DNA of 64,000 nucleotides from Candidatus Parcubacteria bacterium (GCA_046050355.1 JBJOPW010000004.1:13755-77754), one strand, 5' to 3'; positions 8,017 to 52,884 are shown, numbered from the stretch's first letter. Program-made: numbers and translations. Notes: a model not told the origin generated them from the sequence alone.

Positions 8017-8034
8017 TTTTGCTAGCATTTCCTT

Positions 8035-12810: not shown

Positions 12811-12821
12811 ACTCGATCAGG

Positions 12822-14684: not shown

Positions 14685-14700
14685 GGTCTTCTTCTTGAAT

Positions 14701-18653: not shown

Positions 18654-18819
18654 GTGGACTTTTGCCTTGCCTGAAGAGTCGTCGTATGTGGTTGATTTTT
18701 TATGGGAATCCATGCCTTTTCTAGTCTCATTATCATTCCACAGATCGAGACTACAAGCAAAGGTTGGGTGACCGGATTCTGCAGACCCGGCCACCCGCGC
18801 TCCCACAAGGGGAGGGTCG

Positions 18820-19005
18820 TCAGGTCTCGCGGCGCGTGATCCGCTCTTGGAGCCATTCCAGCACTTCGCTTTCGACCCATCCGACCCGGTTCGGCCCGAG
18901 GTTTACCCGCTTGGGGAATGCTCCGACCTTTTCCAGCCTCGCGACGTGTTGCGGCGAGTACAGGACCAACTCTTTGAGCTGGCGCTTTGAAAGTATCCTC
19001 ATCAC
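18820..19005 (-). CDS. AlpA-family regulator/excisionase
   Basis: FPKRVNLGPNRVGWVESEVLEWL. Confidence 0.9.
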   Translation of the reverse strand: MMRILSKRQLKELVLYSPQHVARLEKVGAFPKRVNLGPNRVGWVESEVLEWLQERITRRET

Positions 19006-19199
19006 GATCTCTCCATGGTGAAGAGCATCGCGATGCCCAGGGTTACGACGTTCCTAGGTGTGAGGAGAGTAGTGCGAGATTAGTTGCCATGCCATAGAGT
19101 TGTGCCGCTCTTGATCCGTTCCTGCATGGCCAGTGTGCGCTTTGATTGAACCGGGATAGGGTTTTCGATTAGACTCCTGCACATGAAATGGAGGTACGA

Positions 19200-19517
19200 A
19201 TGAGCAGTATTGACTTGAACGCTCTCGACTTGGCTGAACTCAAGCAGTTAGCCAAGGACGTGTCGAAGGCGATTTCGGGGTTTGAGGATCGGAAGAAGTC
19301 GGAGGCTCGGGCTGCGCTCGAAGCTCAAGCCAAAGAGCTTGGCTTCACGCTGAGCGAGCTACTCGGGACTGGTAGCGGAAAGACGCGCGCACCGACCGTC
19401 GCCAAGTACCGCCATCCCGAGAATGCTTCGATTACATGGTCTGGCCGTGGCCGTAAGCCGCACTGGTTTTCAGACGCGATCGCAAAAGGTGTCTCTCCCG
19501 AGTCGTTAGCGGTATAG
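19200..19517 (+). CDS. hns: H-NS-like nucleoid protein (Rhodobacter HvrA/Spb type)
   Basis: GGAGG RBS; KYRHPEN...TWSGRGRKPHW; short N-terminus DLNALDLAELKQL. Confidence 0.9.
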   Translation: MSSIDLNALDLAELKQLAKDVSKAISGFEDRKKSEARAALEAQAKELGFTLSELLGTGSGKTRAPTVAKYRHPENASITWSGRGRKPHWFSDAIAKGVSPESLAV

Positions 19518-19589
19518 TCTCGTGGTGCGATCATACTCTCAGGCGCGGCCACGGCTGCGCTTGGGCCGCCTAGATCGTTGATCGACCGG

Positions 19590-19833
19590 AGGTGGTCTAG
19601 AAGGTGGACCGGATTCTCAGCGCTCTACAAAAGCTATATTTTTCAGTGCATTGGAAAATTTAGTGGTGCCCAGAGCCGGAATGGGATTGCCGGAACATTC
19701 CAACACATAGCCTTGCATTTTCAATTTCTTAGACCAAGTCGCGGCTCCAAGGGCAACACATCGCCGAACATCGCTGAACATACAATCACAACCCTTGAGG
19801 TGGACTAAAAGGTGGACTAGAAAAGGTGGACTG
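19590..19833. other. attP-like site of the tyrosine integrase (arm - tRNA 3' core - arm)
   Basis: AGGTGGWC arm repeats at 19590, 19602, 19798, 19810, 19824; core 19664-19682 is the reverse complement of ATTCCGGCTCTGGGCACCA, a tRNA 3' end with CCA; ACATCGCYGA tandem repeats at ~19758-19777. Confidence 0.75.
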
Positions 19834-19845
19834 CGGGAGGATTCG

Positions 19846-21006
19846 ATGGTTCTCTTGAACAGCCTGAACCCACTGAAAGCAAAGAACCTAGTCGCAGGAA
19901 AGCACGCTGACGGCCAAGGACTTTGGCTAGTGAAGAGTGAGCGCACTCGGGGAAAGTGGGTTCTCCGCGTTGTCGTCCAAGGAAAGCGTCGGGAAATGGG
20001 TTTGGGCCGGTGGCCTGACGTCTCCATTGCTGAAGCGCGTGAGTTGGCCGCGGAGGCGCGGAGGAAGCTCCGGACAGGCATCGATCCGATAGCTCAACGT
20101 GTTGAAGGCCGGAAGAAAGTCGTACGCCTAACGGTACAACAAGCAGTGGACGCGTGCTTCGAGGCACGAAAAGCAGAACTCAAGAGCGACGGCGAGGCGG
20201 GTCGCTGGATGTCTCCGCTCTCAGTCCACGTGCTGCCGGTGATTGGAAAGACTGCGATAGAGGACGTCGATCAACATGTGCTGAAGAAAGCTTTGGAGCC
20301 CATCTGGCACTCAAAGGCCGACACAGCTCGAAAAGCTCTAAACCGCCTCAGCTTGACCCTAAAGCATGCGGCTGCACTTGGACTGGAAGTAGACCTCCAG
20401 GCAACGATGAAGGTCCGGGCTCTCCTAGGCAAACAAAGGCACGTGTCCGAACACATTCCTTCGATGCCATACAAAGACGCACCGGCCTTCTATCGCTGGC
20501 TCTCCGAACAGACCTCGGCGGCAGCCCTACCGCTTCGCTTCCTCATTTTGACAGCTGCCCGAACTGGAGAGGTGCGCTATGCTCGGCATAGCTACATTGA
20601 GGACAAAGTTCTTACACTCCCTCCCGAGATCACAAAGACCGGGCGTGAACACAAAATTCCGCTTACATCGGAAGCCGCAGCAGTGATCAACGCTGCGAAG
20701 CTGCAAGACAGCCAGGACCTGTTGTTCCCTTCCCCAACCGGAAAGACCTTCTCTGATGCGACAATGTCACGATTAATGCAGCGTGAAGGCCTAGTTTATA
20801 GGCCCCATGGCTTCAGGGCCACATTCCGGACGTGGGTCGAAGAACAAACTGACACTCCTCTCGAAGTGGCTGAGGCCGCACTCGGGCACGTCGTAGAGGG
20901 ACAGGTCATCCGGGCCTACCAACGATCTGATCGACTTGAGAAACGACGATCCTTGCTAGTCAAATGGAGCAAGTATCTGCAAGACACAGGACACCCCAAC
21001 CCATAG
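19846..21006 (+). CDS. P4-like tyrosine integrase with arm-binding domain
   Basis: GGAGG RBS; HADGQGLWL, REMGLG, R(TGE), HGFR, LGH, catalytic Tyr in RAYQR. Confidence 0.95.
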   Translation: MVLLNSLNPLKAKNLVAGKHADGQGLWLVKSERTRGKWVLRVVVQGKRREMGLGRWPDVSIAEARELAAEARRKLRTGIDPIAQRVEGRKKVVRLTVQQAVDACFEARKAELKSDGEAGRWMSPLSVHVLPVIGKTAIEDVDQHVLKKALEPIWHSKADTARKALNRLSLTLKHAAALGLEVDLQATMKVRALLGKQRHVSEHIPSMPYKDAPAFYRWLSEQTSAAALPLRFLILTAARTGEVRYARHSYIEDKVLTLPPEITKTGREHKIPLTSEAAAVINAAKLQDSQDLLFPSPTGKTFSDATMSRLMQREGLVYRPHGFRATFRTWVEEQTDTPLEVAEAALGHVVEGQVIRAYQRSDRLEKRRSLLVKWSKYLQDTGHPNP

Positions 21007-21021
21007 CAACCAAAAATACGG

Positions 21022-21783
21022 TCAAAGCCTGATTATTGTATCCTGAACCTGCAGAGCGCTCATCGCCGAGCAGAACTCAGTCAAGCCAAAGTCTCGATTA
21101 AATCGGTCATTAGACTCATGAACCAAAAGCGTCTTCGCCGCGAAGACAGCGCCCGAATCACGTGCGAGTACTATAGCTCTCAAGTACTTCCGGTCCAAAT
21201 CTCCAGAAATGCTACCAGACACAACCCGAAGATAACTGGTGTCTGCTCCTACAACATAGACACGATCTGCCTGGCAAAAGTAATAACCCTGATGATCGGG
21301 GTCAACGCTTTTCCGAGCAACTTGGAATGGAGAAACGTCATCATCACCGATCGATCTGTAAGCGTCAAAGAACTTATCGAAGTTCTTGCGCTTAATGAAA
21401 TTCATGAACCGGAATAGACCACAGTACTCAAAGAAAATTAACCCTCCAGAAACTAAGTCCCCAAACCCATCCGACCGGTAATAACGAAATGCACCAAGCA
21501 GAGTCCGTGCCTGCTGAATAGACTGACTATCTATCCCCAGACTCTCGCTAAGCGCTGAGTACGTTCTAAATTGCCTGTTTGGAACTCTCAAACACACGTC
21601 AACTTTTGCAAGAGACGAAAGTTCAACTTCTTCCCCCCTATAGATTTTTTCAAGTGTCGCAATGTCTGGCGCACGCGAGCCAAAGACCTTCTTGAACGCC
21701 CGAGCAGTCTTGAAGCCGTCCGCTACCGCTCTAGCCAAAACTTCATCACCGACCAACGTTCGAGCGCCTGACTTCAACACCAC
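21022..21783 (-). CDS. hypothetical protein, possible HTH + beta-rich ligand-binding domain
   Basis: PDIATLEKIYRGEEVELSSLAKV resembles the XRE recognition-helix region; beta-strand-rich C-terminus; divergent from the radical SAM operon. Confidence 0.55.
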   Translation of the reverse strand: MVLKSGARTLVGDEVLARAVADGFKTARAFKKVFGSRAPDIATLEKIYRGEEVELSSLAKVDVCLRVPNRQFRTYSALSESLGIDSQSIQQARTLLGAFRYYRSDGFGDLVSGGLIFFEYCGLFRFMNFIKRKNFDKFFDAYRSIGDDDVSPFQVARKSVDPDHQGYYFCQADRVYVVGADTSYLRVVSGSISGDLDRKYLRAIVLARDSGAVFAAKTLLVHESNDRFNRDFGLTEFCSAMSALQVQDTIIRL

Positions 21784-21988
21784 TACCCACTCCCGAATCT
21801 AACGATTCCTCATCAAATCGCAAGATTCTCATACCAGTCCCGGCACTGCAAGATCAAGTCGCACGAGCGAGGTAACGATCCCAACAAACAACTGAAAATC
21901 GGTGTTTTACCAGTGACTCGTAGGCGTGCGACCATGGAGCCGCAGATGAGAGCAACTGATCTGCGCGAACGTAGACGGGAGGAACAGA

Positions 21989-23317
21989 ATGCGCATCGCA
22001 ATGGTTTACCCAGAAGTCTTCGACCTTGCACGGTTCAATGAAAAGCGGAAAGAGTTTCCGCCTTTTGGGGTAATGTACCTATCCGCCATGATGGAGCAGG
22101 CAGGGCACGTTGTCCAAGTATTTGCCATATCCTTCGAAACGAGTGCGATCGATTTCCGAGGCTTCGATGCAGTAGGATACTCCATCCCATCATCAGCAAC
22201 TTTTGGTATAACAAAGAAGGTACGGTTTGCTAGTAAGTACGACGAGGGGGCACTGATCATGGCTGGTGGAGTACACGCAAACCTTTACCCACTGCAGACT
22301 CTGGATGAATTGGAACCGGACGTTGTTGGCATTGGTGAGTGCGAACAGACCATACTCGACATCTTGGAGAGGGGTAAGAATGCGGATTTTGGTAACATCC
22401 TCGGAGTCGCCTTTAAGAAGAACGGGGAAGCAGTGAAGACACCTCCTCGTCGAGTAGATAAAGACATTGACTGGCTTCCACTTCCATCCCGACACCTCCT
22501 GCCTCGGTCAGACATTGTGATGAGCAATCGACTATCTAACACGGACATCGAAATGGCCCACGTCATGTTCACACGTGGATGCCCGTTTCCGTGCAGGTTC
22601 TGTGCAGTTGCGCAAACTAAGATACAGTATCGCTCAGGCGCCAGCGCAAGACGTGAAATAGTTCACCTAATGGAAACTTATGGAATAGGTGGTTTCGCCA
22701 TTGTCGATGACAATTTCATCGTTGACAAGCGTAAGGTTCATGACGTAGCCGAAAGCATCCAAGACCTCGGTGTAAAATGGTCGGCTCTTTCCCGAGTCGA
22801 CACCATTGACAAAGAACTGCTCACGGCAATGGCCTCATCCGGATGCATCGAAATTAAGTTTGGAATGGAGTCAGGGAGTCAGAGAATTCTTGATGCAATG
22901 CAGAAAAACACGACCCCGGAACAGATCCTAGAGGCCGCAAGGCTTTCATATGAAGCCGGCATCAAGGCCAAGTTCTTTATTGTTCATGGTTATCCTGGTG
23001 AAAACATGGAGACCACAGCCGAGACAATCGCCCTCCTTGATAGAGCTAAAAGATATGTAGATCGAGTTTCGCTCTTCAGGTTTGCCCCATTGCCGGGGAC
23101 ATATGTCTACAATCACCCTGAAGAGTTCGGCCTCCGGGGAACGGACCGGCAAGCAGACTGGGATGGCAACTGGGATAAATATCATATTTATCACAATGCG
23201 TACCACTGGTGGGGAACGGATGATCAATTTGAAGAGCTGAACAGGGCGCACACGGAGATCTCCAACTATATTGACGAAACTTGGCCAGCGACTTTTCAAC
23301 CGCCCCAAAATGTGTAA
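21989..23317 (+). CDS. B12-binding radical SAM enzyme
   Basis: GGAGG RBS; PPFGVMYL, AGGVHA (cobalamin domain); RGCPFPCRFC; DDNF; GMESGSQRIL; GYPGE. Confidence 0.92.
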   Translation: MRIAMVYPEVFDLARFNEKRKEFPPFGVMYLSAMMEQAGHVVQVFAISFETSAIDFRGFDAVGYSIPSSATFGITKKVRFASKYDEGALIMAGGVHANLYPLQTLDELEPDVVGIGECEQTILDILERGKNADFGNILGVAFKKNGEAVKTPPRRVDKDIDWLPLPSRHLLPRSDIVMSNRLSNTDIEMAHVMFTRGCPFPCRFCAVAQTKIQYRSGASARREIVHLMETYGIGGFAIVDDNFIVDKRKVHDVAESIQDLGVKWSALSRVDTIDKELLTAMASSGCIEIKFGMESGSQRILDAMQKNTTPEQILEAARLSYEAGIKAKFFIVHGYPGENMETTAETIALLDRAKRYVDRVSLFRFAPLPGTYVYNHPEEFGLRGTDRQADWDGNWDKYHIYHNAYHWWGTDDQFEELNRAHTEISNYIDETWPATFQPPQNV

Positions 23318-23327
23318 AACTTAGAGA

Positions 23328-24074
23328 ATGGAGAGGATTGGAACTGTAGAAGCGGTGTTCCTACGCAAGGCACATGGCCGTGCTGTTGAGGAATCAACAG
23401 TCCTCAACTTAGTGGCTGATTTCGGGATCGTAGGGGATATCAACTTCTCGGCTTCGTCGCCTCGCCATTTGCTACTTAAGAGGATTGGACGTCCAGGCGA
23501 TTGGACGGACAACGCCGGTTACTTCAATGAAAACGTTTCTTTCACTTCTGAAAGTCTGAATTCGCTTCGTCCGGGAGACATCGTAAGAGTTGGCTCCGCA
23601 ACTCTCCTCGTTCGTTCAAAAAATGAGCGGTGCAACATTTTTGCGCCAGAGGTCCGCGTGGCACGAGGCCTTCATTGTGTTTGCATAGACGCCGGATCCA
23701 TTCGTCGTTCGGATGACATCATAAAGCTCGGTAGCGTTTCTATCGCAGAGGACAGTCGCGCGGCACTATTGGTAACGGGCCTCAGGGCTGTTCCGCTCGG
23801 AAGAGTGGTGACTTTTGAAGATGCATGCACTATGATTGGTGGCAGCCGCCCACACTTGCGGATCATTCCAAGACTGCTAAAGATTGCAATTACTTTGCAT
23901 CCAACTGGGGTTCCATTTCACAGGTTAGTCAAATCTAAGGGTGATCTAATTGACAACATTGTCACTGATCAGATGCTCCTCCTGGCGGCGGAAGGTATAT
24001 CGACTTCAAACGGAAGAACTGTAAATCTTCAGTTCCGTCATGTTTTCGGGAGAAACCCATTTTGCGAAATGTAA
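23328..24074 (+). CDS. MOSC domain fused to an alkyltransferase-like (ATL/MGMT-fold) domain
   Basis: GIVGD, ENV, LRPGDIVRVG, GSIRRSD (MOSC); VPLGRVVTF...PFHRLV...LAAEGI (ATL, no catalytic Cys). Confidence 0.7.
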   Translation: MERIGTVEAVFLRKAHGRAVEESTVLNLVADFGIVGDINFSASSPRHLLLKRIGRPGDWTDNAGYFNENVSFTSESLNSLRPGDIVRVGSATLLVRSKNERCNIFAPEVRVARGLHCVCIDAGSIRRSDDIIKLGSVSIAEDSRAALLVTGLRAVPLGRVVTFEDACTMIGGSRPHLRIIPRLLKIAITLHPTGVPFHRLVKSKGDLIDNIVTDQMLLLAAEGISTSNGRTVNLQFRHVFGRNPFCEM

Positions 24075-24478
24075 GCTGCTTTGTCTCGATGGCAATTGAA
24101 GCTCGTGAAGCACTTAGTGAAGAGCTCTCCGCAATTAAGAGTGTGTGCAGTAGATTTGGTGTTAGAGCCCATGTCTTCCTAGATGAATACTCATTTGAGA
24201 AAGGCAAAGAATCCCAAATGATGGCGGAGGTCGTTTCGTGTATTAATGGCTGTGATTTCTTGATTGCTGAAGTAAGCAAGAAGGCGATTGGGGTGGGGTG
24301 TGAGGTTGGCATCGCTGCAGCATTGGGAAAGCCGGTGATCTATTGTCGGCAGGCAGGGAGTCCAGCTTCGCTGACGGTTGGCGGACTGGCAAGTTTTACT
24401 CTGACTTATAGTGAAGCCAACGAACTTGCGCGGAAACTAAGTTTCGTATTAGAGAACAGGTTCTTCGAGTCCGACTAG
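24062..24478 (+). CDS. nucleoside 2-deoxyribosyltransferase/N-glycosidase fold protein
   Basis: CDFLIAEVS..IGVGCEVGIAAALGKPVI; overlaps the upstream stop. Confidence 0.85.
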   Translation: MRNVSCFVSMAIEAREALSEELSAIKSVCSRFGVRAHVFLDEYSFEKGKESQMMAEVVSCINGCDFLIAEVSKKAIGVGCEVGIAAALGKPVIYCRQAGSPASLTVGGLASFTLTYSEANELARKLSFVLENRFFESD

Positions 24479-24573
24479 ATTTCGATGCTACTTGGACCGG
24501 ATCCCGATCTTTTATCTGGGTGTCCGGCATCTAGTGTCTTAGTCAAGGCAATGAGAATTCATTGAAGTGAGGA

Positions 24574-24603
24574 AGTTTGAGAAGTGTTTCGAAGTGGGTC
24601 ACA
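24574..24603. repeat. internal copy of the right attachment site
   Basis: AGTTTGAGAAGTGTTTCGAAGTGGGTCACA matches 29107-29136 at 27/30, same orientation. Confidence 0.85.
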
Positions 24604-24909
24604 TTTTGGAAGTTTCGGAGCCTTCCTCGTTGCTCCGGCTCATTGTTTAACTTGATGACGGTCGCCGTCACGGGTCAGTGTGTTGATCGTACAGGATCCA
24701 TGAGTGGGGTTTCGAAGCGGTCCCTGCATACCTTGGAGTTCCGGGTAGCTCGGGTGGAGGATAGTGATATTCGAGGCGCTCTCCCGTGTGGAGTGCTCGC
24801 CAATGACAGTTTGGTCGCGCATGCTGTCAGGCGCAGGACGCTAGAAGACCCTCATTGACAACTCATGGTATAGTATCTATGTCTTACTAGCTAAATGTAG
24901 AGGTAAACC

Positions 24910-25152
24910 ATGTCCGAGAAATACAAATTCAAAGTTGAGAATGAAACCTACGAGTGGGGCGATGCAACCATCACCGCAGCGGAAGTACGCGGGGTCGGTC
25001 CAGGGATTCCTGATAGCATGGATCTCTTTGTGAAGCTTCCCGGAAAGCCTGCGCGCTTAGTGTCGGATCCAGGCGAAGTCTTTGATCTCTCGAAGCCGGG
25101 AATCGAGAAATTCTTTGCGCAGAACTCATCGTCGGAAGCGGGCGCCAACTAA
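24910..25152 (+). CDS. ubiquitin-like protein (multi-ubiquitin-type beta-grasp, single domain)
   Basis: YKFKVE..YEW...IT...FDLSKPGIEKF; ends EAG-AN, consistent with a pro-form Gly tail. Confidence 0.8.
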   Translation: MSEKYKFKVENETYEWGDATITAAEVRGVGPGIPDSMDLFVKLPGKPARLVSDPGEVFDLSKPGIEKFFAQNSSSEAGAN

Positions 25153-25154
25153 TT

Positions 25155-25562
25155 ATGCCGTTATTGTTCGAAGATGACTACGAGTACTTGAAAAGTACTG
25201 GGCTAAAGTACGATGAGTACACGGACCAGCGCTTCTTGGTGGTCAGGGCTTACCCCGTTCCGGAGGGTAAGTACATCTTCGAAGGACAACCGGTTCGGAC
25301 GGTCGATGTCCTGTCCATTATCCCGCCAAACTACAACACCGAAGGCTGCGACATGTTCTGGGTGCACCCAGCGATATCGCGTGCTGATGGAAAGCCCATT
25401 CCGGCAACTGGCGGCGACGACAGAGTCTTCGACAACACGACCTTCGTTCGTTGGTCCAGGCACTGGCCTGCCGGTCGATGGAGACCCAAGGTTGATACAA
25501 TAGAGACCATATTGAGCCGTATCGACTGGGCCTTGCATAACCCAGACCCTGCTGAAGCATGA
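25155..25562 (+). CDS. prokaryotic E2 (family E) conjugating enzyme
   Basis: YPVPEG, IPPNY, DMFWVHP, RWSRH, WRP..DTIET. Confidence 0.85.
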   Translation: MPLLFEDDYEYLKSTGLKYDEYTDQRFLVVRAYPVPEGKYIFEGQPVRTVDVLSIIPPNYNTEGCDMFWVHPAISRADGKPIPATGGDDRVFDNTTFVRWSRHWPAGRWRPKVDTIETILSRIDWALHNPDPAEA

Positions 25563-27010
25563 GCCAACCCCGCATCACCCTCCTGCAATCACATCGAGAG
25601 CGCTTGGAGCGTTGGTTACCGTCTCATCCAGAGCATCACGAACGTGCCGCTGTAGTACTGTTCCGCTCGTTTGCACGAGAGGTACTGGAACAGACTCAAT
25701 CAGAACGGCTCGTCTCGGTCGACGTGATCGAAATGACTGATGACTGGCTCGTGGAGAGCTCAGTCATCAGTGTCAAAGTCAACCTTCGAAAGCTTGTGGA
25801 TCTGTATTTCCGCTGTGAGCAGGAGGGCTTACACTTAGGCTTCGTACATAGTCACCCACTTGGTGCTGACGCCTTCTCGGGTCAGGACGATCAGAACGAA
25901 CAAAACATCTTGCGGGGCTACGCTGGCTGCAATGGACGAGACTCAAGATTGGTGGCTCTTGTCTACGTCGACGGCGAGTGGATTGGTCGGGTGCGTTATG
26001 CGACCAAGCCAACCGAGAGCTCGCCTGTTCGTCACATACTTACACTGGGGGAAACCCTTGCTGTACACCATTTGACCAACCCGGAGGGTGATCTGGCTAC
26101 ACTGGAGCGACAGGCGGCCGCTTTCGGTCGACCATTTAATCAAAAGCTTCAGTCTCTTAGAGTTGCAGTGGTTGGGTGCGGAGGTACCGGCTCACCAACT
26201 GCTACCCTTCTGGCTCGCGCAGGTGTCGGCGAACTTATTCTCATTGATGGTGACAACCTAGAGGAAAGCAATCTCAACCGGGTTCGAGGCTTGCGGAGAG
26301 ATGATGTCGGACACAACAAGGCAGAGAGGCTGTGTTCGTACATCCGCTCCTTATCCCTGCCAACATCCGTGTCGTTTGTCCCCAATTATCTTGAGGACAA
26401 TCGGGCAGCTGTCGACGCACTTTCCTCAGCCGATGTCGTATTCGGCTGCACCGACACCGTGGCAAGTCGAGAACTCTTAAACGAGGCTCTGTACTATTAT
26501 GGGTTTGTGCTCATTGATTGCGGACTGTCGGGAGAAGTTGCCAGCACTGCTGATGGGAAACCAAGGCTCATTGAGCATCGCGGTCGCGTAAGCACCGTGC
26601 AGCCCGAAACTGGAGCTTGCCTGCGCTGCCAAGGGGTCGTCACAGACAACAAACTGAGATACGAGAGAGCGGTCAACGAGAACCCAGAGCTCAAGAAGCT
26701 CGACGCCAAAACGCTGCTCCGCGAACATTATCTAGTTGGCGGAGGCGAAGCCGCTCCGGGGGTCGGACCGTTCACTAGCGCAACTGCCGATCTTGCTGTC
26801 TCCTCACTATTTGAACTCATTCATCCATACAGACAACTGGGCGGCGATTTCCGTCCTGACAATATTTGGCAAGATTACTTGCATATGACTTATCACAGTA
26901 ACGAGCCCCGAAACCTTTCTGCCGATTGTTATTGCTGTGGCACGCGCGCGATCCTACTGAAGCGTGAGCGTCAAGTTCTACTGGACAGACCGGCACTTGG
27001 TACGATTTGA
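25559..27010 (+). CDS. JAB peptidase - ThiF/E1 fusion
   Basis: E...HSHP...FSGQD (JAB); GCGGTG, DGDNLEESNLNR, GCTD, CLRC (E1). Confidence 0.9.
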   Translation: MSQPRITLLQSHRERLERWLPSHPEHHERAAVVLFRSFAREVLEQTQSERLVSVDVIEMTDDWLVESSVISVKVNLRKLVDLYFRCEQEGLHLGFVHSHPLGADAFSGQDDQNEQNILRGYAGCNGRDSRLVALVYVDGEWIGRVRYATKPTESSPVRHILTLGETLAVHHLTNPEGDLATLERQAAAFGRPFNQKLQSLRVAVVGCGGTGSPTATLLARAGVGELILIDGDNLEESNLNRVRGLRRDDVGHNKAERLCSYIRSLSLPTSVSFVPNYLEDNRAAVDALSSADVVFGCTDTVASRELLNEALYYYGFVLIDCGLSGEVASTADGKPRLIEHRGRVSTVQPETGACLRCQGVVTDNKLRYERAVNENPELKKLDAKTLLREHYLVGGGEAAPGVGPFTSATADLAVSSLFELIHPYRQLGGDFRPDNIWQDYLHMTYHSNEPRNLSADCYCCGTRAILLKRERQVLLDRPALGTI

Positions 27011-27011
27011 T

Positions 27012-27446
27012 ATGAATCTAGGCATTCCCAAGATATTTCTAAACTTCTGGAAGAAAGCACGGCTTCCAGAAATCCAAGAACCTACCAATCATGTGAGGCA
27101 CTATCAAGCTGCCCTGATCTTGGAAAGAACACCAAGCAACTCGGCAATCGGAGATCGCGATTTTGTATTCGTGATCTATGAGACCGTTCCACGGTGGGCA
27201 CTGTTTCGATGCCCCTGCGGCTGTAGCGAAGTCATCAGCCTACCCCTAGCTGCTCCACACAATCCTCGATGGGCCGTCTATGTCGACGAGGATGGCTTCG
27301 CTTCTCTGTATCCATCCGTTTGGCGCAACACTGGCTGCATGAGTCACTTTGTAATTCGCTCAGGATGTGTATTCTGGGCGAATAAGAGCGGGGTCAGCCC
27401 ATTTGAAGCCAGCCCAAATTTCTATAAGCCTCGCATTCCCAAGTAG
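27012..27446 (+). CDS. DUF6527 family Cys/His metal-binding protein
   Basis: CPCGC, SLYPSVW..GCMSHF. Confidence 0.85.
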   Translation: MNLGIPKIFLNFWKKARLPEIQEPTNHVRHYQAALILERTPSNSAIGDRDFVFVIYETVPRWALFRCPCGCSEVISLPLAAPHNPRWAVYVDEDGFASLYPSVWRNTGCMSHFVIRSGCVFWANKSGVSPFEASPNFYKPRIPK

Positions 27447-27460
27447 AAGGGACGTGAGCT

Positions 27461-28882
27461 CTAGTATTCCCAGCGAACAAAATAGCCAGACCGTCCATAG
27501 CAGTCGTATCCGCGCTTGTCCTTATGTGCCTTGAGCATTGTCCCGGAGCTCTTCCTCTTGAACTCTTTTCCGCAGTAGGTACATGCGATCACCTGAAGGG
27601 GTCCACCAGAGTAGGTTGAAGGCCTGCGATTCACTCGACCCGCCGAACTTCCTCCTCGCTTTGTCTGGGCACCAAGCCGACCGCCTCCTCCAAAGTAGGA
27701 ATTTTCTGGCAGCTCACCTGCTTTTGACAGTTCGACCTCGAAGCGCGGTTCGAACTTTTCTTCAAGTATCTGTGGCTTCTCAACTTTTGGATTAACCAGG
27801 GACTTGATTCCGGTTGACCCTGAGGCACCTCCAGTTCGATCCCACACATAGAAGTATTCGCGCGGAGACCCGTCCGATGGACGTTTGTAGCTTAGAGCGT
27901 AAGGTTCGACGACCCTCTCGTATCCGTCATAGGTTAGTCGGATAAGCCGTTGTTGAGACCCGGCTTCCAAGAAGACGTTACGAAGTTCTGCCGGAAAGAA
28001 GGCATCGCTTATGCGATCTGCCATACCGCTCGTTTCGAATACACTATCGACGAACCGCGTGTACGCTTCTGTCGCGGTGTCGAAGTCTATTTTGCTTGCT
28101 GCCGGGCAAACTATGTATTTCTCCCATGCCGCCCGGAAGAAGGCCATGGGGAGACCAAGGAGTATTTGCCGAGCTGAACCCGGACTTCGTTCAAAGATGG
28201 TCTTCTTGAGAAAGACGCTTGCAATTGTTGATCGATCAAGGTCAATCCGATCATCAAAGAACGCAGCGTAAACTAGATCGTAGAGATCATGGGAGTGACG
28301 ACGTTGCAGCAAGCATTTGAGCTTAGATGCCATGCCCTCTTCGAGAGCAACACATCTAAGATTTACTCTGCAGACATCTGAATCCGAATATGGATGAATA
28401 AGTGGAACCGTGCTCACTGGAAGATACAAGCGGTCGAACTCTGTCACATCCATCCGAACTGAAATTTCCAGCGCGCTTTTCTGGCCATAGAAATCTTCGA
28501 AGAAGACCTTTCCCTTGTAGATTTTTCTGTCGGTGTTTTTGCCGAGATTGGCCCGTGCGGCTTCTTTGAAAGAGCTTCTCTCACTTACAAACTTGATACC
28601 CGATACAGCTTGAGCCATCTTGCAGCTACGTTCAATTTGAGCAGTCAGTTCATCCAAGTCAACTGCACGTTCAGTTGAGAAATCCAGGTCAGAGGAGAAC
28701 CTGGTGTTCGGAAAGTACGCTTTTCGGAAGCAGTTTCCGCCCTTTAGGATGAGAAGGTCACTGAGATACTCATTTTGGTATATTGCAAACAGGAGCCAGC
28801 CGAAGACGTAGTCACGCTGAACATTCGAGGTATTGATCTCGAATTCAGCAGATTTCTGGTCGATTTCATCTCTCTCGATCAT
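27461..28882 (-). CDS. AbiEii-type nucleotidyltransferase fused to WYL domain and C-terminal Zn finger
   Basis: LKGG..RFSSDLDFS, K..RR..HDLYDL; LTYDGYERVVEPYAL (WYL); CTYC..H..C. Confidence 0.85.
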   Translation of the reverse strand: MIERDEIDQKSAEFEINTSNVQRDYVFGWLLFAIYQNEYLSDLLILKGGNCFRKAYFPNTRFSSDLDFSTERAVDLDELTAQIERSCKMAQAVSGIKFVSERSSFKEAARANLGKNTDRKIYKGKVFFEDFYGQKSALEISVRMDVTEFDRLYLPVSTVPLIHPYSDSDVCRVNLRCVALEEGMASKLKCLLQRRHSHDLYDLVYAAFFDDRIDLDRSTIASVFLKKTIFERSPGSARQILLGLPMAFFRAAWEKYIVCPAASKIDFDTATEAYTRFVDSVFETSGMADRISDAFFPAELRNVFLEAGSQQRLIRLTYDGYERVVEPYALSYKRPSDGSPREYFYVWDRTGGASGSTGIKSLVNPKVEKPQILEEKFEPRFEVELSKAGELPENSYFGGGGRLGAQTKRGGSSAGRVNRRPSTYSGGPLQVIACTYCGKEFKRKSSGTMLKAHKDKRGYDCYGRSGYFVRWEY

Positions 28883-29106
28883 GTGACTACTCTACACCAA
28901 ATCCCAAGCTACGGCACCTTAAGGCGATGATGACGGTTTGGCCAAGGAACACAACCCGTATGGCACCTCTATGCTGCATCTGCTGTGTCTTGAGGCTTTT
29001 GATACTTCAAATTGTACTGCCACTGCGGGATCTTATTTGGAGTACACGCTGGTCTTTTAGGACAGAAGGTTAGAAGGTGGCTCAGGGACGTCTTCATCTC
29101 CTTTAG

Positions 29107-29150
29107 AGTTCGAGAAGTGTTCCGATGTGGGTCACACTGGCGGCAAAACC
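29107..29150. repeat. right hybrid attachment site (element arm, core 29127-29135, host arm)
   Basis: Core GTGGGTCAC at the point where pyrE-like sequence ends. Confidence 0.8.
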
Positions 29151-29438
29151 GGTGGCGGCAGTGGGGATGCCGATGATGATGGGTTGACGCCTTTCATCAT
29201 CGGACAAAATGTCGCAGATGCGTTTGCCGATGAATCGTCCGCACCGCTCAGTCAGGGATGGGTTGTCGGTCAGGTCGCCACGACCATTGAAGTAGATGTG
29301 GCTCGCTACACCGCTTTTCAGTGTGAACGGATCTTCTGTCCACACCAACATTCCATATTTGACCATTTCACGGATCAGGTCGATCTCCTCGTTTTCGAAG
29401 CGACGACCTGCACCGAATGGTGAAGTAAGTTCTGGCAA
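29127..29438 (-). pseudogene. pyrE: 5' part of an orotate phosphoribosyltransferase-like gene interrupted by the element
   Basis: FTLKSGVASHIYFN and IIGIPTAA; the PRPP-binding motif is missing; frame continues as YDPRTF in bases 18-1. Confidence 0.7.
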
Positions 29439-29577
29439 AGTACTAATCCTTCCTGTTTGGGCCACTCCATCACGTATGGTGTGGCGGTTTGGCGATGGGG
29501 GTAGAGTACGCTTTGGCAAGTAAAAATGCAAGTACAGCAAAGAAAATGAGTAATCTCATGCTACTATTTACATATAC

Positions 29578-30717
29578 ATGAAAGCGCCTGAAGTAAGTAC
29601 AATGAATGAGGCTCGCGCGGCTCATGCGGAGTTCACTTTGCAACGTGCCGCTTTTTCATTTTTTCAAGAAAATATAGAACTGTGTTCCAAACCACCTCGT
29701 GATGTAATGCCAGAGATTATTGCAGAGTTGCCAGAGTCGCCCAAATTACTCTCGAAACAAGAGATGGATCTATGGCTCAAAGAGAATACCTCAATGAGCG
29801 GTCAGCGGTTACATATGGACGTCGGGGCGCCATCAAAATTGGAATCCTATATTTTGTTTTTACTCATGACAACCAGTCCAAAAAGTACACAATTTGAAAC
29901 AACGGATATAGAAACTACAGGTGACAGATTTTCATTAGTTGATAGTATACAAATTTTGCGTGATGAGGTACGAACTAAGCGTTTCCTGATGGGTATCAAA
30001 GAGGCAGTTGCAAACCTTCTTACAACCAAAGATAATATACTTGTTTGCGATGCCGGTTGCGGAGCGATTCCTATTTTAGGTATACAAGCAGCATTGCAAT
30101 CGCCAAATGTGCAGGTTGTTTGTATTGAGAGCAATCCCGAATCGGTTATTATGGCGCGTGAATGTATTAATGCGTTTAATCTTGGTAATCAAGTGTTGGT
30201 TATAGAAGGAGACGCACGTGAATATAAGCCAAAGAGAGAAATTGATCTTGTTATTTCTGAGACAATGGATATTGGCTTACTTAATGAGCCAATGTGTGAC
30301 ATTATGTCGAGTTTAAAACCTTTCACATCAAATGATAGCATTTTCATTCCAGAACAAGTAGAAGTATTGGCAACAGCATTAACAGCGTCTGATTATGATA
30401 GTGCTGATAGTTACGCCCTTATTGATAAGGATTGTTGGCCAGTTATTCAAACAAAGTGGCAAGTTATCGGTAGCTACAAAGCAGGTGATTTGAGTCCGTA
30501 TTTTGAAAGTGATATTTCGGTACCGCAGAATAATGAAGCAAAAATTCCACTAATAAGTTCAAGGGTAAAAATTCATGATTCAGTGCCAACTCTCGATTTT
30601 TGCGAAAGCCGCCTTACAGCATTTTTGCCTTTGCCTGGAAGCCTCCAGTCGCGTGATAGTAAACTACATATTTCGTATCGAGCGGGTGATTCGATCAAAG
30701 AAGTACAAATAGCATGA
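29578..30717 (+). CDS. class I SAM-dependent methyltransferase (PRMT-like core)
   Basis: DEVRT, DAGCG, IESNP, GDAR, DLVISET...LLNE, FIP. Confidence 0.8.
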   Translation: MKAPEVSTMNEARAAHAEFTLQRAAFSFFQENIELCSKPPRDVMPEIIAELPESPKLLSKQEMDLWLKENTSMSGQRLHMDVGAPSKLESYILFLLMTTSPKSTQFETTDIETTGDRFSLVDSIQILRDEVRTKRFLMGIKEAVANLLTTKDNILVCDAGCGAIPILGIQAALQSPNVQVVCIESNPESVIMARECINAFNLGNQVLVIEGDAREYKPKREIDLVISETMDIGLLNEPMCDIMSSLKPFTSNDSIFIPEQVEVLATALTASDYDSADSYALIDKDCWPVIQTKWQVIGSYKAGDLSPYFESDISVPQNNEAKIPLISSRVKIHDSVPTLDFCESRLTAFLPLPGSLQSRDSKLHISYRAGDSIKEVQIA

Positions 30718-30745
30718 CCAGCATAAATGTATACATAGCAATGTT

Positions 30746-31363
30746 ATGCAATACGGCGTAGATGTGGCGAGCACCCGGCTTGATGATCTCGATAAACGAG
30801 TGTTGGCAGATGTGCGTGAACGTATCGGTCGTGTGGAGGAGGTGTCAGTGCTTGATGTTGGGTGCGGGCAGGGTGGCTTGGCGCTGGTACTGACTCAAGC
30901 TGGAGCCATTGTTACTGCACTTGATATTCCTGACTACAGTTCGGCCTTTCAAAATGAGACTGCTGCGACAATTGAATTTGTTCAGGCAGATGTCCGTGAG
31001 TGGATACAAAATAATACTGTTCAGTTTGATATGGTCGTGCTGCAACGCGTACTCCATTATCTACCGAATCATGAAGCTAAGAAGCTTCTGAGAGCACTGC
31101 GAGATGTGACCGCTACACTCTATCTGTCAGTGACCGGCACGACGACTGCCATCGCGAGTCACTATGACAAAGTCCACGAGCTAATCGAGAGGCGGTGGGG
31201 TGTACTTGATACAGTGGGGCAGGAATTATTTTCTATCACTGCACCGGTGTGTCTCTATAGTAAGGAGGAGTTACTTGAGCTCCTCAAGGACTGTGGGTGG
31301 GAGGTAGTGTGGTCGCGAGTGTCTGATTTTGGGAATATTAAGGTGGTGGCTCGAGGGAGTTAA
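30746..31363 (+). CDS. class I SAM-dependent methyltransferase
   Basis: VLDVGCGQG, FDMV, VLHYL. Confidence 0.9.
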   Translation: MQYGVDVASTRLDDLDKRVLADVRERIGRVEEVSVLDVGCGQGGLALVLTQAGAIVTALDIPDYSSAFQNETAATIEFVQADVREWIQNNTVQFDMVVLQRVLHYLPNHEAKKLLRALRDVTATLYLSVTGTTTAIASHYDKVHELIERRWGVLDTVGQELFSITAPVCLYSKEELLELLKDCGWEVVWSRVSDFGNIKVVARGS

Positions 31364-31367
31364 GTAC

Positions 31368-31403
31368 AAACGTAAAAGTCCCCAATCGGGGACTTTTACG
31401 TTT
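31368..31403. terminator. intrinsic terminator
   Basis: AAACGTAAAAGTCCC-loop-GGGACTTTTACGTTT. Confidence 0.75.
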
Positions 31404-31412
31404 ACGTGTAGG

Positions 31413-31591
31413 GTGCCGGAGATAGGACTTGGTCACAGATAATTTCTTGCAGAAATTTCCGCGACCCCGCCTCATAGTCGCAGAGCGACATATTCCGGCT
31501 TTCAAGTCCCTCACGAAAGTAAAGCAGTTTGCTTTCTCTCCGGCTCATTAAAATCAAAATGCGCCATAAAGCGCATTAAGATTTTATATTG
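31413..31591 (-). repeat. structured echo of the tRNA-Leu 3' end
   Basis: Antisense GCCGGAG and GAGGGACTTGAA, AAATTT/AAATTATC hairpin, direct copy CAAGTCCTATCTCCGGCAC. Confidence 0.75.
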
Positions 31592-31672
31592 TGCCGGAGG
31601 AGGGACTTGAACCCTCACACCTTGCGATAATGGGTTTTGAATCCATCGCGTCTACCATTCCGCCACTCCGGC
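31592..31672 (-). tRNA. tRNA-Leu(CAA)
   Basis: GCCGGAG/CTCCGGC acceptor, anticodon loop TTCAAAA, long variable arm, GTTCAAGTC T-loop; no encoded CCA. Confidence 0.9.
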
Positions 31673-52878: not shown

Positions 52879-52884
52879 AATGAA

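What the first reader, a model, noticed from the sequence alone, without database searches (positions are those of the whole stretch)
18820..31672. Alphaproteobacterial-style element inside a Patescibacteria-like chromosome: candidate host-episymbiont shuttle
Seen: the element encodes a Rhodobacter-type H-NS, AlpA, a P4-like integrase and a cobalamin-dependent enzyme, and much of it looks more GC-rich by eye. The flank has CPR-like traits (HTH-MurA, degenerate PriA, intron-containing tRNA-Asn, tRNAs without CCA). A 9-bp overlap is far shorter than assembler k-mers, and the att logic is self-consistent, which argues against a simple chimera. Inference: the element crossed phyla, possibly from the organism this CPR cell lives on, which would point to an otherwise unknown host.
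Basis: inference. Interest (0 to 1): 0.85.

Follow-up and report, generated by a model that had tools for sequence, protein, structure and literature searches.

The report
Alphaproteobacterial mobile island inside CPR genome
A 29-kb mobile DNA island of a kind otherwise found in Alphaproteobacteria sits inside a gene of a tiny Patescibacteria (CPR) genome, apparently inserted by its own serine recombinase, which shows DNA flow between very distant bacteria.

Summary
It spans window 19-29135 (29.1 kb), not 18820-31672. It splits a host gene at a 9-bp core, GTGGGTCAC. The two gene halves are in frame. A same-genus genome (G062) has the gene intact, in the same ParB-tRNALeu-gene-MiaA-tRNATrp neighbourhood.

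A large serine recombinase gene ends on the left core. In Rhodobacterales relatives the two junction arms form one uninterrupted site at the 3' end of that gene. The P4-like integrase, AlpA and H-NS lie in the middle, as an unrecombined circle junction.

Eleven backbone genes match alphaproteobacterial elements at 33-80% identity. The recombinase nests among Rhodobacterales in a tree. H-NS was found in 0 of 400 other genomes of the host phylum, and the integrase in 1 of 400 at 26%.

An independent Logan contig spans junction 29135 at the same depth as the flank. The host is a 0.94-Mb, 99.97%-complete genome in a phylum of small genomes.

The cross-phylum transfer is supported. The host-episymbiont shuttle idea is untested: no donor is closer than 67% identity.

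The parts
1..27 (-). Left junction (attL). It holds the last in-window bases of the C-terminal half of the split host gene (which runs on to C4:13356, outside the window) and the 9-bp core GTGGGTCAC at 19-27.
   Evidence: The core codons read V-T-H in the host gene frame. G062 has the uninterrupted ...AASVTHYD....
14..1444 (-). Large serine recombinase (476 aa). Its reading frame crosses the core, and its stop codon lies just outside it.
   Evidence: Resolvase, Recombinase and Zn_ribbon_recom domains. It is 49-59% identical to homologues in 9 alphaproteobacterial or metagenome loci and nested in a Rhodobacterales clade. The ORF computed for the circular form is 527 aa.
1651..2805 (-). P-loop ATPase (backbone gene).
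   Evidence: AAA_22, DUF87 and TrwB-like hits near their cut-offs. It is 54-62% identical in 9 loci.
3026..5935 (+). Backbone genes: DUF3768 (3026-3559), an HTH protein (3953-4303), and ORFs of 165, 184 and 119 aa.
   Evidence: Homologues lie in the same elements.
5932..8916 (+). Mobilisation module: a coupling-protein-like ATPase (5932-8016) and a Replic_Relax protein (8035-8916).
   Evidence: T4SS-DNA_transf scores 22.3 bits against a cut-off of 20.1, and Replic_Relax has E 2e-18. They are 70% and 44% identical in Actibacterium atlanticum and 60-68% in four other alphaproteobacterial genomes.
8828..9784 (+). ORF of 318 aa with no Pfam family.
   Evidence: It is 65% identical over 234 aa in the Sinisalibacter locus L010.
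9817..18806 (-). Defence cargo 1: type III restriction (Res 9817-12810, Mod 12822-14684), DUF4391 (14701-15465) and an SNF2 helicase (15462-18806).
   Evidence: Pfam. PADLOC REase_III scores 1271 bits, MTase_III 692 bits and the 'HKD+Snf2' model 458 bits.
18774..19035 (-). AlpA gene (18820-19005). It coincides with a full-length match to the Rfam family 'Ruegeria trans44 sRNA'.
   Evidence: PF05930. RF02649 scores 174.6 bits against a cut-off of 108. It is 77-83% identical at protein level in 4 of 5 alphaproteobacterial genomes and 80% at DNA level over 245 nt to L031.
19188..19517 (+). H-NS family protein.
   Evidence: PF00816. It was found in 0 of 400 other genomes of the phylum. The best plasmid hits are Rhodobacterales at 55-61%.
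19795..21006 (+). P4-like tyrosine integrase. It is internal to the element here, and its junction with AlpA/H-NS is not recombined.
   Evidence: It was found in 0 of 40 relatives and in 1 of 400 in the phylum, at 26%. It has 54 genome loci at 47-67% identity.
21022..24478 (.). Cargo 2, function unknown: a 253-aa ORF (-), a B12-binding radical SAM enzyme, a MOSC/MGMT-like protein and a nucleoside 2-deoxyribosyltransferase-like protein.
   Evidence: The only PADLOC match is a weak PDC-M51A hit for the radical SAM enzyme.
24574..24603 (+). Internal att-like copy. It matches 29107-29136 at 27 of 30 bases, with the core at 24594-24602.
24910..27446 (+). Cargo 3: a Bub (6E/DUF6527) ubiquitination-like operon, made of Ubl, E2, a JAB-E1 fusion and DUF6527.
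   Evidence: Multi_ubiq, Prok-E2_E, Prok-JAB+ThiF and DUF6527 hits. The architecture is as described in passages of 10.1101/2024.11.21.623953.
27461..28882 (-). AbiEii-family nucleotidyltransferase with a C-terminal extension.
   Evidence: PF08843. PADLOC AbiEii has E 2.5e-44.
29107..29135 (+). Right junction (attR): the element arm at 29107-29126 plus the core at 29127-29135.
   Evidence: A Logan contig of run X2 spans it with 0 differences. The similarity of run X5's contig ends exactly at 29135.
29136..29540 (-). N-terminal half of the split host gene (weakly phosphoribosyltransferase-like). This is host DNA, not element.
   Evidence: It is 50% identical to the N-terminal part of the intact 252-aa frame in G062. 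Pribosyltran matches only the C-terminal half, at E 0.015, below the cut-off.

Best explanation
Window 19-29135 is a 29.1-kb integrative, probably mobilisable, element. Its family otherwise lives in Alphaproteobacteria, mainly Rhodobacterales-type hosts.

The element carries two integration modules. In the alphaproteobacterial relatives it lies linear, with the P4-like tyrosine integrase at one end (often next to a tRNA gene) and AlpA at the other. There the serine recombinase's own site is intact. In this Patescibacteria genome the opposite holds. The circular form recombined at the serine recombinase's attP, which overlaps the 3' end of that gene. The partner was a 9-bp-matching site, GTGGGTCAC, inside a host accessory gene. 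That split the gene and left the AlpA/H-NS/integrase circle junction intact in the middle.

The cargo is mostly defence: a type III restriction system with SNF2 and DUF4391, a Bub ubiquitination-like operon, AbiEii, and an unknown radical-SAM cluster.

Shown: the borders, the split gene, the empty site, the att arms, the alphaproteobacterial kinship of the backbone, and the physical linkage at the right junction. Inferred: that the serine recombinase catalysed the event, the direction of transfer, and the route of entry. For the route, the genome has ComEC and DprA (uptake of DNA), and the element has a relaxase-like gene and a coupling-protein-like gene (mobilisation).
For: (1) SPLIT GENE AND EMPTY SITE. 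The C-terminal half is at C4:13356-13781 and the N-terminal half at window 29136-29540. They meet at the same V-T-H codons. In G062 they map to adjacent parts of one 252-aa open frame (tblastn 1258-1527 and 1498-1920). That frame is flanked by ParB and tRNA-Leu(caa) on one side and MiaA and tRNA-Trp on the other, as in G000.

(2) RECOMBINASE POSITION. The recombinase gene ends on the left core.

(3) ATT ARMS. G000's right-junction arm, core and left-junction arm align as one uninterrupted 53-nt site at the 3' end of the recombinase homologue. The match is 32-35 of 53 positions in 6 of 8 relatives, where the maximum of 200 shuffles is 27-28. The other 2 of 8 score 25 and 27 and do not exceed the shuffles.

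(4) GENE ORDER. Actibacterium atlanticum C3:14358-33659 carries 11 homologous backbone genes (33-80% identity) in the same general order, with the integrase and AlpA at opposite ends. G000's copy is therefore a circular permutation broken at the recombinase site. In 5 of 20 loci scanned, the integrase lies directly 3' of a tRNA gene.

(5) KINSHIP. Of 54 integrase loci, found by a scan of one genome per species across all phyla, 46 carry alphaproteobacterial names, 7 are named only 'Pseudomonadota bacterium', and 1 is a 3.7-kb Chthoniobacterales MAG contig. In the recombinase tree G000 sits in a clade with 99/96 support among Roseobacteraceae and Paracoccaceae. Six ordinary recombinases of the host phylum form a separate clade with 100/100 support.

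(6) FOREIGN TO THE HOST PHYLUM. H-NS was found in 0 of 400 other genomes, and the integrase in 1 of 400 (26% identity) and in 0 of 40 close relatives.

(7) COMPOSITION.

(8) PHYSICAL LINKAGE. One Logan contig of run X2 (15,205 nt, 0 differences) covers window 16275-31479 at depth 12.4, against 11.5-13.0 for the flank contigs.

(9) HOST IDENTITY. The genome is 0.94 Mb, 99.97% complete and 0.03% contaminated. All listed genomes of its genus, order and phylum are 0.5-2.0 Mb. No uL30 was found, although 13 of 14 control genomes have it. The nearest Atlas clusters for a flank pilin-like protein are Minisyncoccota, which holds the class Patescibacteriia. ComEC and DprA are present.
Against: The left junction was not checked against reads. 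Run X2 may be the sample the genome was assembled from, so its contig is an independent assembly but not an independent sample.

No close donor was found. The best identities are 67% for the integrase, 59% for the recombinase and 83% for AlpA. So neither recency nor a donor family is established, and the direction of transfer rests on distribution alone.

The 21-29 kb cargo is compositionally near the host (81st-94th percentile). In the loci fetched its only homologues are E2 and JAB-E1 in L038, at 32-35%.

The tyrosine integrase's own att site could not be located.

Recombinase activity is untested. A 59-mer dyad-symmetry test of the computed attP did not exceed shuffles. By eye I see only a 6-bp inverted repeat, CCGATG/CATCGG, around an 8-bp spacer.

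The host phylum is unnamed in the tools, so 'Patescibacteria' is inferred. Two recalled TM7 probes did not match the 16S (one with 3 mismatches, one with no match within 3), so it is probably not a classic Saccharibacteria.

The five alphaproteobacterial genomes searched have no homologue of the split host gene. The site used here therefore looks fortuitous rather than a conserved target.
Confidence: 0.85

Rival explanations
1. One reading: a P4-like island spanning 18820-31672, integrated by the tyrosine integrase at tRNA-Leu.
For: The closest integrase relatives in Ruegeria atlantica (L003) and L023 lie directly 3' of a tRNA-Leu(caa) gene. The window has a tRNA-Leu(caa) at 31591-31672.
Against: The tRNA is 10.6 kb from the integrase and in the opposite relative orientation. 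No repeat of its 3' end appears among the direct repeats of window 1-34000 (the 20 largest of at least 60 families were shown). No tRNA-like fragment lies in 18990-19830. The stretch 29136-31590 is host or other DNA: half of the split gene plus two low-GC methyltransferases. Backbone genes homologous to the same alphaproteobacterial elements lie far left of 18820, at window 14-9784.
Confidence: 0.03
2. Assembly or binning chimera: alphaproteobacterial DNA wrongly joined to a Patescibacteria contig.
For: The composition is alien. The genome is metagenome-derived, with 17 contigs. The left junction was not checked against reads.
Against: Host DNA lies on both sides in one contig, 13.7 kb to the left and 34.9 kb to the right. 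It is syntenic with same-genus genomes: ParB is 87% identical and MiaA 52%. The insert cuts one gene at one codon, with a shared 9-bp core. Recombinase att arms sit at the two ends. A separate Logan assembly spans 29135 at flank depth. Contamination is estimated at 0.03%.
Confidence: 0.03
3. The element family is native to Patescibacteria, or the transfer ran from Patescibacteria to Alphaproteobacteria.
For: Large serine recombinases are common in the phylum, in 253 of 400 other genomes. One other genome of the phylum (G281) has a 46%-identical recombinase on the alphaproteobacterial side of the tree. The 21-29 kb cargo is compositionally host-like.
Against: The ordinary recombinases of the phylum are 27-36% identical and form a separate clade. 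G281's copy is solitary, with no other backbone gene within 20 kb. The integrase, H-NS and AlpA-type backbone were not found in the 400 phylum genomes or 40 relatives searched. They are widespread in many alphaproteobacterial orders.
Confidence: 0.04
4. The insertion is real, but the serine recombinase did not make it. Examples would be illegitimate or microhomology recombination after DNA uptake, or the tyrosine integrase acting at a secondary site.
For: Catalysis is inferred, not shown. The core is only 9 bp. The site is not a conserved target. The internal third copy at 24574-24603 is unexplained.
Against: The break in the element falls exactly on the site that is conserved and uninterrupted at the recombinase gene's 3' end in relatives. 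The tyrosine integrase end is unrecombined.
Confidence: 0.05

Closest known systems
Unnamed alphaproteobacterial integrase/serine-recombinase/coupling-protein/AlpA islands, such as Actibacterium atlanticum contig NZ_AQQY01000003.1 (about 14.4-33.7 kb), Sinisalibacter lacisalsi (L010) and Ruegeria atlantica (L003)
   Same: Eleven backbone genes are shared at 33-80% identity: integrase, serine recombinase, P-loop ATPase, DUF3768, HTH protein, three small ORFs, coupling-protein-like ATPase, Replic_Relax and AlpA. The order is broadly the same, and variable cargo sits between the integrase and the recombinase.
   Different: In those elements the serine recombinase site is uninterrupted. The element is linear from the integrase (often at a tRNA) to AlpA. 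Here it is permuted, opened at the recombinase site and sits in another phylum. The cargo (type III restriction with SNF2, H-NS, radical-SAM cluster, Bub, AbiEii) differs. I found no paper that names this family: a search for 'DUF3768' gave 0 papers, and the listing showed nothing on it.
Elements and prophages integrated by large serine recombinases that split a host gene (recalled examples: SPbeta in spsM, the skin element in sigK)
   Same: The recombinase gene sits at one end. The shared core is short. The target is a protein-coding gene that is interrupted, and attP can be reconstructed from the two ends.
   Different: Those are Bacillota phages or phage relics. Here the element is mobilisable and also carries a tyrosine integrase. 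The att site lies inside the recombinase's own 3' coding end, so integration replaces its last 52 residues with one. The comparison is recalled; I read no paper on it.
P4/CP4-57-type tRNA islands with an AlpA regulator (names of the Pfam families PF05930 and PF13356)
   Same: The integrase architecture and the AlpA gene match. Relatives of the integrase do sit at tRNA genes.
   Different: In this genome that module is not at an end of the element, and no tRNA-derived att repeat was found.
Genomic islands and foreign mobile elements reported in Patescibacteria (PMC12455944 and PMC12102498; I read passages only)
   Same: Surveys report hundreds of islands in 125 genomes, a few transfers from Pseudomonadota (3 events in that data set), and rare relaxases and Gram-negative-type T4SS attributed to independent acquisitions.
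   Different: Those are statistical or gene-level calls. Here the whole element, both junctions, the empty site, the recombinase site and a donor-side element family are resolved.
Type I Bub (6E.1/DUF6527) ubiquitination-like operons (10.1101/2024.11.21.623953; passages read)
   Same: The operon has a Ubl, an E2 of family E, a JAB-E1 fusion and DUF6527 (BubE) in one operon.
   Different: Ubl and E2 are separate genes here, whereas the paper describes Type I as a Ubl-E2 fusion. I did not examine the catalytic residues.

Membership tests
Element integrated by a large serine recombinase | A recombinase with Resolvase, Recombinase and zinc-ribbon domains | tested here: met
   PF00239 has E 8e-32, PF07508 E 3.6e-10 and PF13408 E 1.7e-10.
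Element integrated by a large serine recombinase | attL and attR share a short core, and one of them abuts the recombinase gene | tested here: met
   GTGGGTCAC lies at 19-27 and at 29127-29135. The recombinase ORF (14-1444) crosses the left copy.
Element integrated by a large serine recombinase | The two element arms form one attP in unintegrated or otherwise-integrated relatives | tested here: met
   6 of 8 relatives match at 32-35 of 53 positions, above every one of 200 shuffles. 2 of 8 do not.
Element integrated by a large serine recombinase | An unoccupied attB in a related genome | tested here: met
   G062 has the intact gene with the core and both host-side arms, in the same synteny. Only 2 of 60 same-genus genomes carry the gene at all.
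Element integrated by a large serine recombinase | Recombination activity of the enzyme on these sites | not testable with these tools
   This needs an assay.
   tRNA-Leu is 10.6 kb away and lies outside the element. No tRNA-derived repeat or fragment was found.
Integrative mobilisable element | Its own integration module, plus a relaxase and/or coupling protein, without a mating-pore gene set | tested here: inconclusive
   Replic_Relax has E 2e-18, and the coupling-protein-like ATPase scores just above one cut-off. No VirB4-type or other pore gene appeared among the ORFs scanned. Small ORFs under about 110 aa were only partly scanned. oriT and transfer were not tested.
Alphaproteobacterial origin of the backbone | The nearest homologues and the tree position lie among Alphaproteobacteria, not in the host phylum | tested here: met
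Patescibacteria (CPR) host | A small, complete genome within a phylum of uniformly small genomes, and lack of ribosomal protein uL30 | tested here: met
   The genome is 0.94 Mb and 99.97% complete, and its relatives are 0.5-2.0 Mb. PF00327 was not found, while 13 of 14 controls have it. That CPR lack uL30 is recalled knowledge.
Patescibacteria (CPR) host | A named taxonomic placement | not testable with these tools
The only lead is that the nearest Atlas clusters of a flank protein are Minisyncoccota.
Type I Bub operon | Ubl, E2 (family E), JAB-E1 and DUF6527 in one operon | tested here: met
   PF14452, PF14462, PF14464+PF00899 and PF20137 match four adjacent, same-strand genes. The definition comes from passages read.
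Host-derived element (the donor is the physical host of the episymbiont) | The same or a near-identical element in a co-occurring alphaproteobacterium, and physical association of the two cells | tested here: not met
   No relative is above 67% (integrase) in genome or metagenome scans. No second copy was among the X2 contigs laid. Physical association cannot be tested here.

The most novel reading that the evidence does not exclude
The element is a two-key mobile island. In its usual Rhodobacterales hosts it uses the tyrosine integrase at tRNA genes. Its large serine recombinase, a kind of enzyme that I recall needs no host factors, lets it integrate in a cell as foreign as a Patescibacteria epibiont. 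On this reading the island was picked up from the epibiont's own freshwater Rhodobacterales-type host. It then both names that otherwise unknown host lineage and supplies a natural recombinase/attB pair that works in a CPR chromosome, which could serve as a genetic tool for these hard-to-engineer bacteria.
Probability: 0.2. Interest if true: 0.8.

Novelty: new variant of a known kind. Interest (0 to 1): 0.6.

Why it matters
Gene flow into the ultra-small, host-dependent Patescibacteria is mostly known from statistical surveys. Here a whole 29-kb element is resolved to the base. Both junctions, the empty site, the recombinase site and the donor-side family are all visible, so an inter-phylum transfer can be examined mechanistically.

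It shows one element family using two alternative integration modules in different hosts. It brings H-NS and a stack of defence systems into a 0.94-Mb genome. It also points to a serine recombinase and target site that evidently function in a CPR chromosome.

If the donor lineage could be tied to the physical host, islands of this kind would become a way to predict the hosts of uncultured episymbionts.

Tried and rejected
LEADS THAT WENT NOWHERE.
- Megablast of window 1-24500 against plasmids gave no match.
- Blastn of 24700-29135 against plasmids gave only three matches of about 150 nt, all inside AbiEii genes.
- The Atlas search with TopA gave generic Pseudomonadota-labelled topoisomerase clusters and said nothing about taxonomy.
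- Two recalled TM7 probes did not match the 16S (one with 3 mismatches, one with no match within 3). I use this only to avoid calling the genome a classic Saccharibacteria.
- I looked for the tyrosine integrase's att site as a tRNA-like fragment in 18990-19830. I tried T-arm patterns and blastn-short against 20 alphaproteobacterial and 42 G000 tRNAs. Only chance-level 9-11-nt matches came up.
- The 59-mer dyad-symmetry test of the computed attP gave 14 of 59, no better than shuffles. The axis I used may be half a base off, and I did not pursue it.
- The first computed circular junction was off by one base and gave a wrong ORF length of 482. It was corrected.
- The split host gene has no homologue in five alphaproteobacterial genomes. 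The idea of a conserved natural target is therefore dropped.
- G281's 46%-identical recombinase was followed up. It is solitary beside tRNA-Gln, so it is not a second copy of the element.
- tblastn of all G000 ORFs against the alphaproteobacterial and metagenome loci showed only 40-51% hits outside the island. These looked like ordinary shared genes, so I make no claim of further alphaproteobacterial islands.
- The metagenome scan for a near-identical donor gave at most 66% identity.

RUN X1. It holds all the sampled words of 26500-31500, yet no contig was laid on 17001-31479. The tool read 86% of the run and states that a hole proves nothing, so I draw no conclusion.

RUNS X4 AND X5. They hold the AlpA region and the Bub-AbiEii module at roughly 94-98% nucleotide identity. 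I did not try to learn what the coded organism or samples are.

PAPER SEARCHES.
- 'DUF3768' returned 0 papers.
- CPR + serine recombinase + genomic island returned nothing relevant in the 12 papers listed.
- Serine recombinase + tyrosine integrase + IME + Rhodobacter returned nothing on this family in the 10 listed.
- For some searches I saw only listings and abstract starts, apart from the three papers whose passages I read.
- Supplements were not opened.

Full report
WHAT IS IN THE WINDOW

The window is C4:13755-77754 of a genome of 939,894 bp in 17 contigs, with 48.1% GC. The genome is rated 99.97% complete and 0.03% contaminated.

Pfam scans of the larger ORFs show a long run of mobile-element and defence genes between window 14 and 28882:
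- a large serine recombinase at 14-1444(-);
- a P-loop ATPase, DUF3768, an HTH protein and small ORFs;
- a coupling-protein-like ATPase at 5932-8016 and a Replic_Relax protein at 8035-8916;
- a type III restriction-modification pair with DUF4391 and an SNF2 helicase at 9817-18806;
- AlpA, H-NS and a P4-like tyrosine integrase at 18820-21006;
- a 253-aa ORF, a B12-binding radical SAM enzyme, a MOSC/MGMT-like protein and a deoxyribosyltransferase-like protein at 21022-24478;
- a Multi_ubiq / E2 / JAB-E1 / DUF6527 operon at 24910-27446;
- AbiEii at 27461-28882.

PADLOC confirms the type III restriction pair, an 'HKD+Snf2' model and AbiEii. The ubiquitin-like operon fits the Bub (6E/DUF6527) family, as described in passages of 10.1101/2024.11.21.623953.

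To the right lie ordinary housekeeping genes: tRNA-Leu, ParB, RelA/SpoT, TopA, DprA, SerRS, Dus, DnaX, MreB and an HTH-MurA fusion. To the left, in C4:1-13754, lie IF-2, ClpB, two T4SS-pilin-domain proteins, tRNA-Tyr, tRNA-Trp and MiaA.

THE TRUE BORDERS

A direct-repeat search found a 27-of-30 match between 24574-24603 and 29107-29136. Reading the left edge of the window showed the same 9-bp core, GTGGGTCAC, at 19-27. The three copies are at 19-27, 24594-24602 and 29127-29135.

On the minus strand, the ORF at 29103-29540 runs into the right core as ...AASVTH. The ORF at C4:13356-13793 begins at the left core as ...VTHYDP....

Only 2 of 60 same-genus genomes have a homologue of this gene. In one of them, G062, both halves map to adjacent parts of a single 252-aa open frame that reads ...AASVTHYD.... 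Its DNA carries the core with both host-side arms. The neighbours are ParB and tRNA-Leu(caa) on one side and MiaA and tRNA-Trp on the other, exactly as in G000.

So the element is window 19-29135, 29.1 kb, inserted within a weakly phosphoribosyltransferase-like accessory gene. Pribosyltran matches the C-terminal half only, at E 0.015. G062 provides the empty site.

HOW IT INTEGRATED

The serine recombinase ORF crosses the left core and stops just beyond it. In the alphaproteobacterial relatives, the sequence at the 3' end of the homologous recombinase gene contains G000's right-junction arm, a core-like sequence and G000's left-junction arm, all as one uninterrupted site. In 6 of 8 relatives the 53-nt composite matches at 32-35 positions, above the maximum (27-28) of 200 shuffles. 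In the other 2 of 8 it does not. That is the signature of attP x attB recombination by the element's own large serine recombinase.

The computed circular form would give a 527-aa recombinase, within the 495-530-aa frames of relatives. The integrated form has 476 aa.

The tyrosine integrase is not at an end of the element. In Actibacterium atlanticum (contig C3:14358-33659) eleven homologous backbone genes lie in the same general order, with the integrase at one end and AlpA at the other. In 5 of 20 relatives scanned the integrase lies directly 3' of a tRNA gene. In G000, AlpA, H-NS and the integrase are neighbours. The copy is therefore a circular permutation, opened at the recombinase site, with the tyrosine module's circle junction left intact.

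I could not find that module's att site. Catalysis by the recombinase is inferred, not shown.

WHERE THE ELEMENT COMES FROM

A pattern scan of one genome for each of 185,579 species, across all phyla, found 54 integrase loci at 47-67% identity. Of these, 46 carry names of alphaproteobacterial taxa (Rhodobacterales, Hyphomicrobiales, Sphingomonadales, Sneathiella, Parvularculaceae). Seven are named only 'Pseudomonadota bacterium'. One is a 3.7-kb contig of a Chthoniobacterales MAG.

Within these loci the recombinase, ATPase, DUF3768 and neighbouring genes recur at 36-65% identity. The coupling protein (60-68%) and AlpA (77-83%) are found in four of five alphaproteobacterial genomes searched.

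The AlpA region even matches the Rfam family 'Ruegeria trans44 sRNA' at 174.6 bits. The best H-NS matches among plasmids are Rhodobacterales at 55-61%.

I built a maximum-likelihood tree of 20 recombinases. The rows were all tblastn hits of at least 380 aa among the loci held; shorter hits were left out. G000 falls in a clade with 99/96 support, together with Sinisalibacter, Ruegeria, Actibacterium and Paracoccaceae sequences. Six ordinary recombinases of the host phylum form a separate clade with 100/100 support.

In the host phylum:
- H-NS was found in 0 of 400 other genomes, spanning 320 genera counting G000's own;
- the integrase was found in 1 of 400, at 26% identity, and in 0 of 40 close relatives;
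- serine recombinases are common (253 of 400) but only 27-36% identical, apart from one solitary 46% copy in G281.

Composition agrees for the backbone. The island is 53.8% GC against 48.0% for the rest of the genome, and window 1.2-21.2 kb sits at the 98th-100th percentile of tetranucleotide distance. The 21-29 kb cargo is much less distinct, at the 81st-94th percentile.

No near-identical donor was found. The metagenome scan gave 56 loci at 36-66% identity.

IS IT AN ARTEFACT?

One contig carries host DNA on both sides, and the insert cuts one codon of one gene. Beyond that, a Logan contig of run X2 (15,205 nt, no differences) covers window 16275-31479. That links the SNF2 gene, AlpA, H-NS, the integrase, the cargo, the junction and the host gene half. 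Its depth is 12.4, against 11.5-13.0 for the contigs of the ParB-TopA flank.

X2 may be the source sample, so this is an independent assembly rather than an independent sample.

THE HOST

The genome and every listed member of its genus, order and phylum are 0.5-2.0 Mb at high completeness. Ribosomal protein uL30 was not found, although 13 of 14 control genomes have it. The nearest Atlas clusters of a flank T4SS-pilin protein are labelled Minisyncoccota, which contains the class Patescibacteriia. I therefore accept 'Patescibacteria-like'.

ComEC and DprA are present, so uptake of free DNA is a possible route of entry. The element's relaxase-like and coupling-protein-like genes make mobilisation by conjugation another. 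Neither route is shown.

THE SHUTTLE IDEA

Nothing here ties the donor to the cell's physical host. The contigs of X2 laid on the element show a single copy at host depth and no second, donor-type copy.

Two other runs, a biofilm metagenome (X4) and a coded organism (X5), hold the AlpA region and the Bub-AbiEii module at about 94-98% nucleotide identity. In X5 the similarity stops exactly at 29135 and then runs on into sequence that resembles the left-junction arm. So this cargo module circulates among related elements next to the same recombinase site.

Together with the internal att-like copy at 24574-24603, this suggests that the module is itself a cassette captured at that site. I cannot explain the mechanism.

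COMPARISON WITH WHAT IS KNOWN

Surveys already report genomic islands and occasional Pseudomonadota-derived genes in Patescibacteria (PMC12455944, passages). They also report rare relaxases and Gram-negative-type T4SS attributed to independent acquisitions (PMC12102498, passages). Integration by a large serine recombinase into a coding gene is a textbook mode (recalled).

Three things are new here:
- the base-level resolution of an inter-phylum event;
- the evidence that one element family uses two alternative integration modules;
- a recombinase/att pair that has evidently worked in a CPR chromosome.

I rate it a new variant of a known kind, with moderate-to-high interest. Its coordinates, its att logic at tRNA-Leu and the host-shuttle reading do not stand, or remain open.

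Noticed in passing
window 54310-54618 (-): A tRNA gene is interrupted in its anticodon loop by a 236-nt group I intron (Rfam Intron_gpI at 54356-54598, 79 bits). ARAGORN reads it as tRNA-Thr(tgt). Both choices keep a U before the 5' site and a G before the 3' site.
   Followed up: partly
window 24574-24603 and 24767-29135: There is a third, internal copy of the element arm plus core (27 of 30 bases). The Bub-AbiEii module to its right recurs at about 94-98% nucleotide identity in two other public runs (X4, X5). In X5 it ends exactly at 29135. It looks like a cassette that moves between related elements at the recombinase site. The mechanism is unexplained.
   Followed up: partly
window 21022-24478: A four-gene cargo cluster of unknown function: a 253-aa ORF with no family, a B12-binding radical SAM enzyme, a protein with weak MOSC and MGMT DNA-binding matches, and a nucleoside 2-deoxyribosyltransferase-like protein. 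The only PADLOC match is a weak candidate hit (PDC-M51A, E 2e-11). It could be a defence or nucleic-acid-modification system.
   Followed up: no
window 18774-19035 (-): The Rfam family 'Ruegeria trans44 sRNA' (RF02649) matches full length at 174.6 bits, exactly over the AlpA coding sequence. This suggests that the Rfam family is, or overlaps, an AlpA mRNA of this island family.
   Followed up: no
window 14-30 and 28970-29135: The serine recombinase's att site lies inside its own 3' coding end. Integration replaces the last 52 residues (527-aa circular form) with a single residue (476 aa). In relatives the site's DNA is conserved in two different reading frames, which points to selection on the DNA rather than on the protein.
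   Followed up: partly
window 29578-31363: Two low-GC (0.42-0.46) methyltransferase genes lie between tRNA-Leu and the split gene. They are absent from the same interval in G062, so they are a separate small indel next to the tRNA.
   Followed up: partly
window 50586-53628: A low-GC block (0.41-0.46) encodes CreD (E 8e-142), an S51 peptidase and YecM. These families are unusual for a reduced genome, so this may be another acquired block.
   Followed up: no
L071 (G281:C7) 7260-8618: Another genome of the same phylum carries a solitary serine recombinase that is 46% identical to this one and falls on the alphaproteobacterial side of the tree. It lies next to tRNA-Gln, in a 2-kb stretch of raised GC (0.51 against 0.41-0.47). 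It may be the relic of an independent entry.
   Followed up: partly
   Followed up: no
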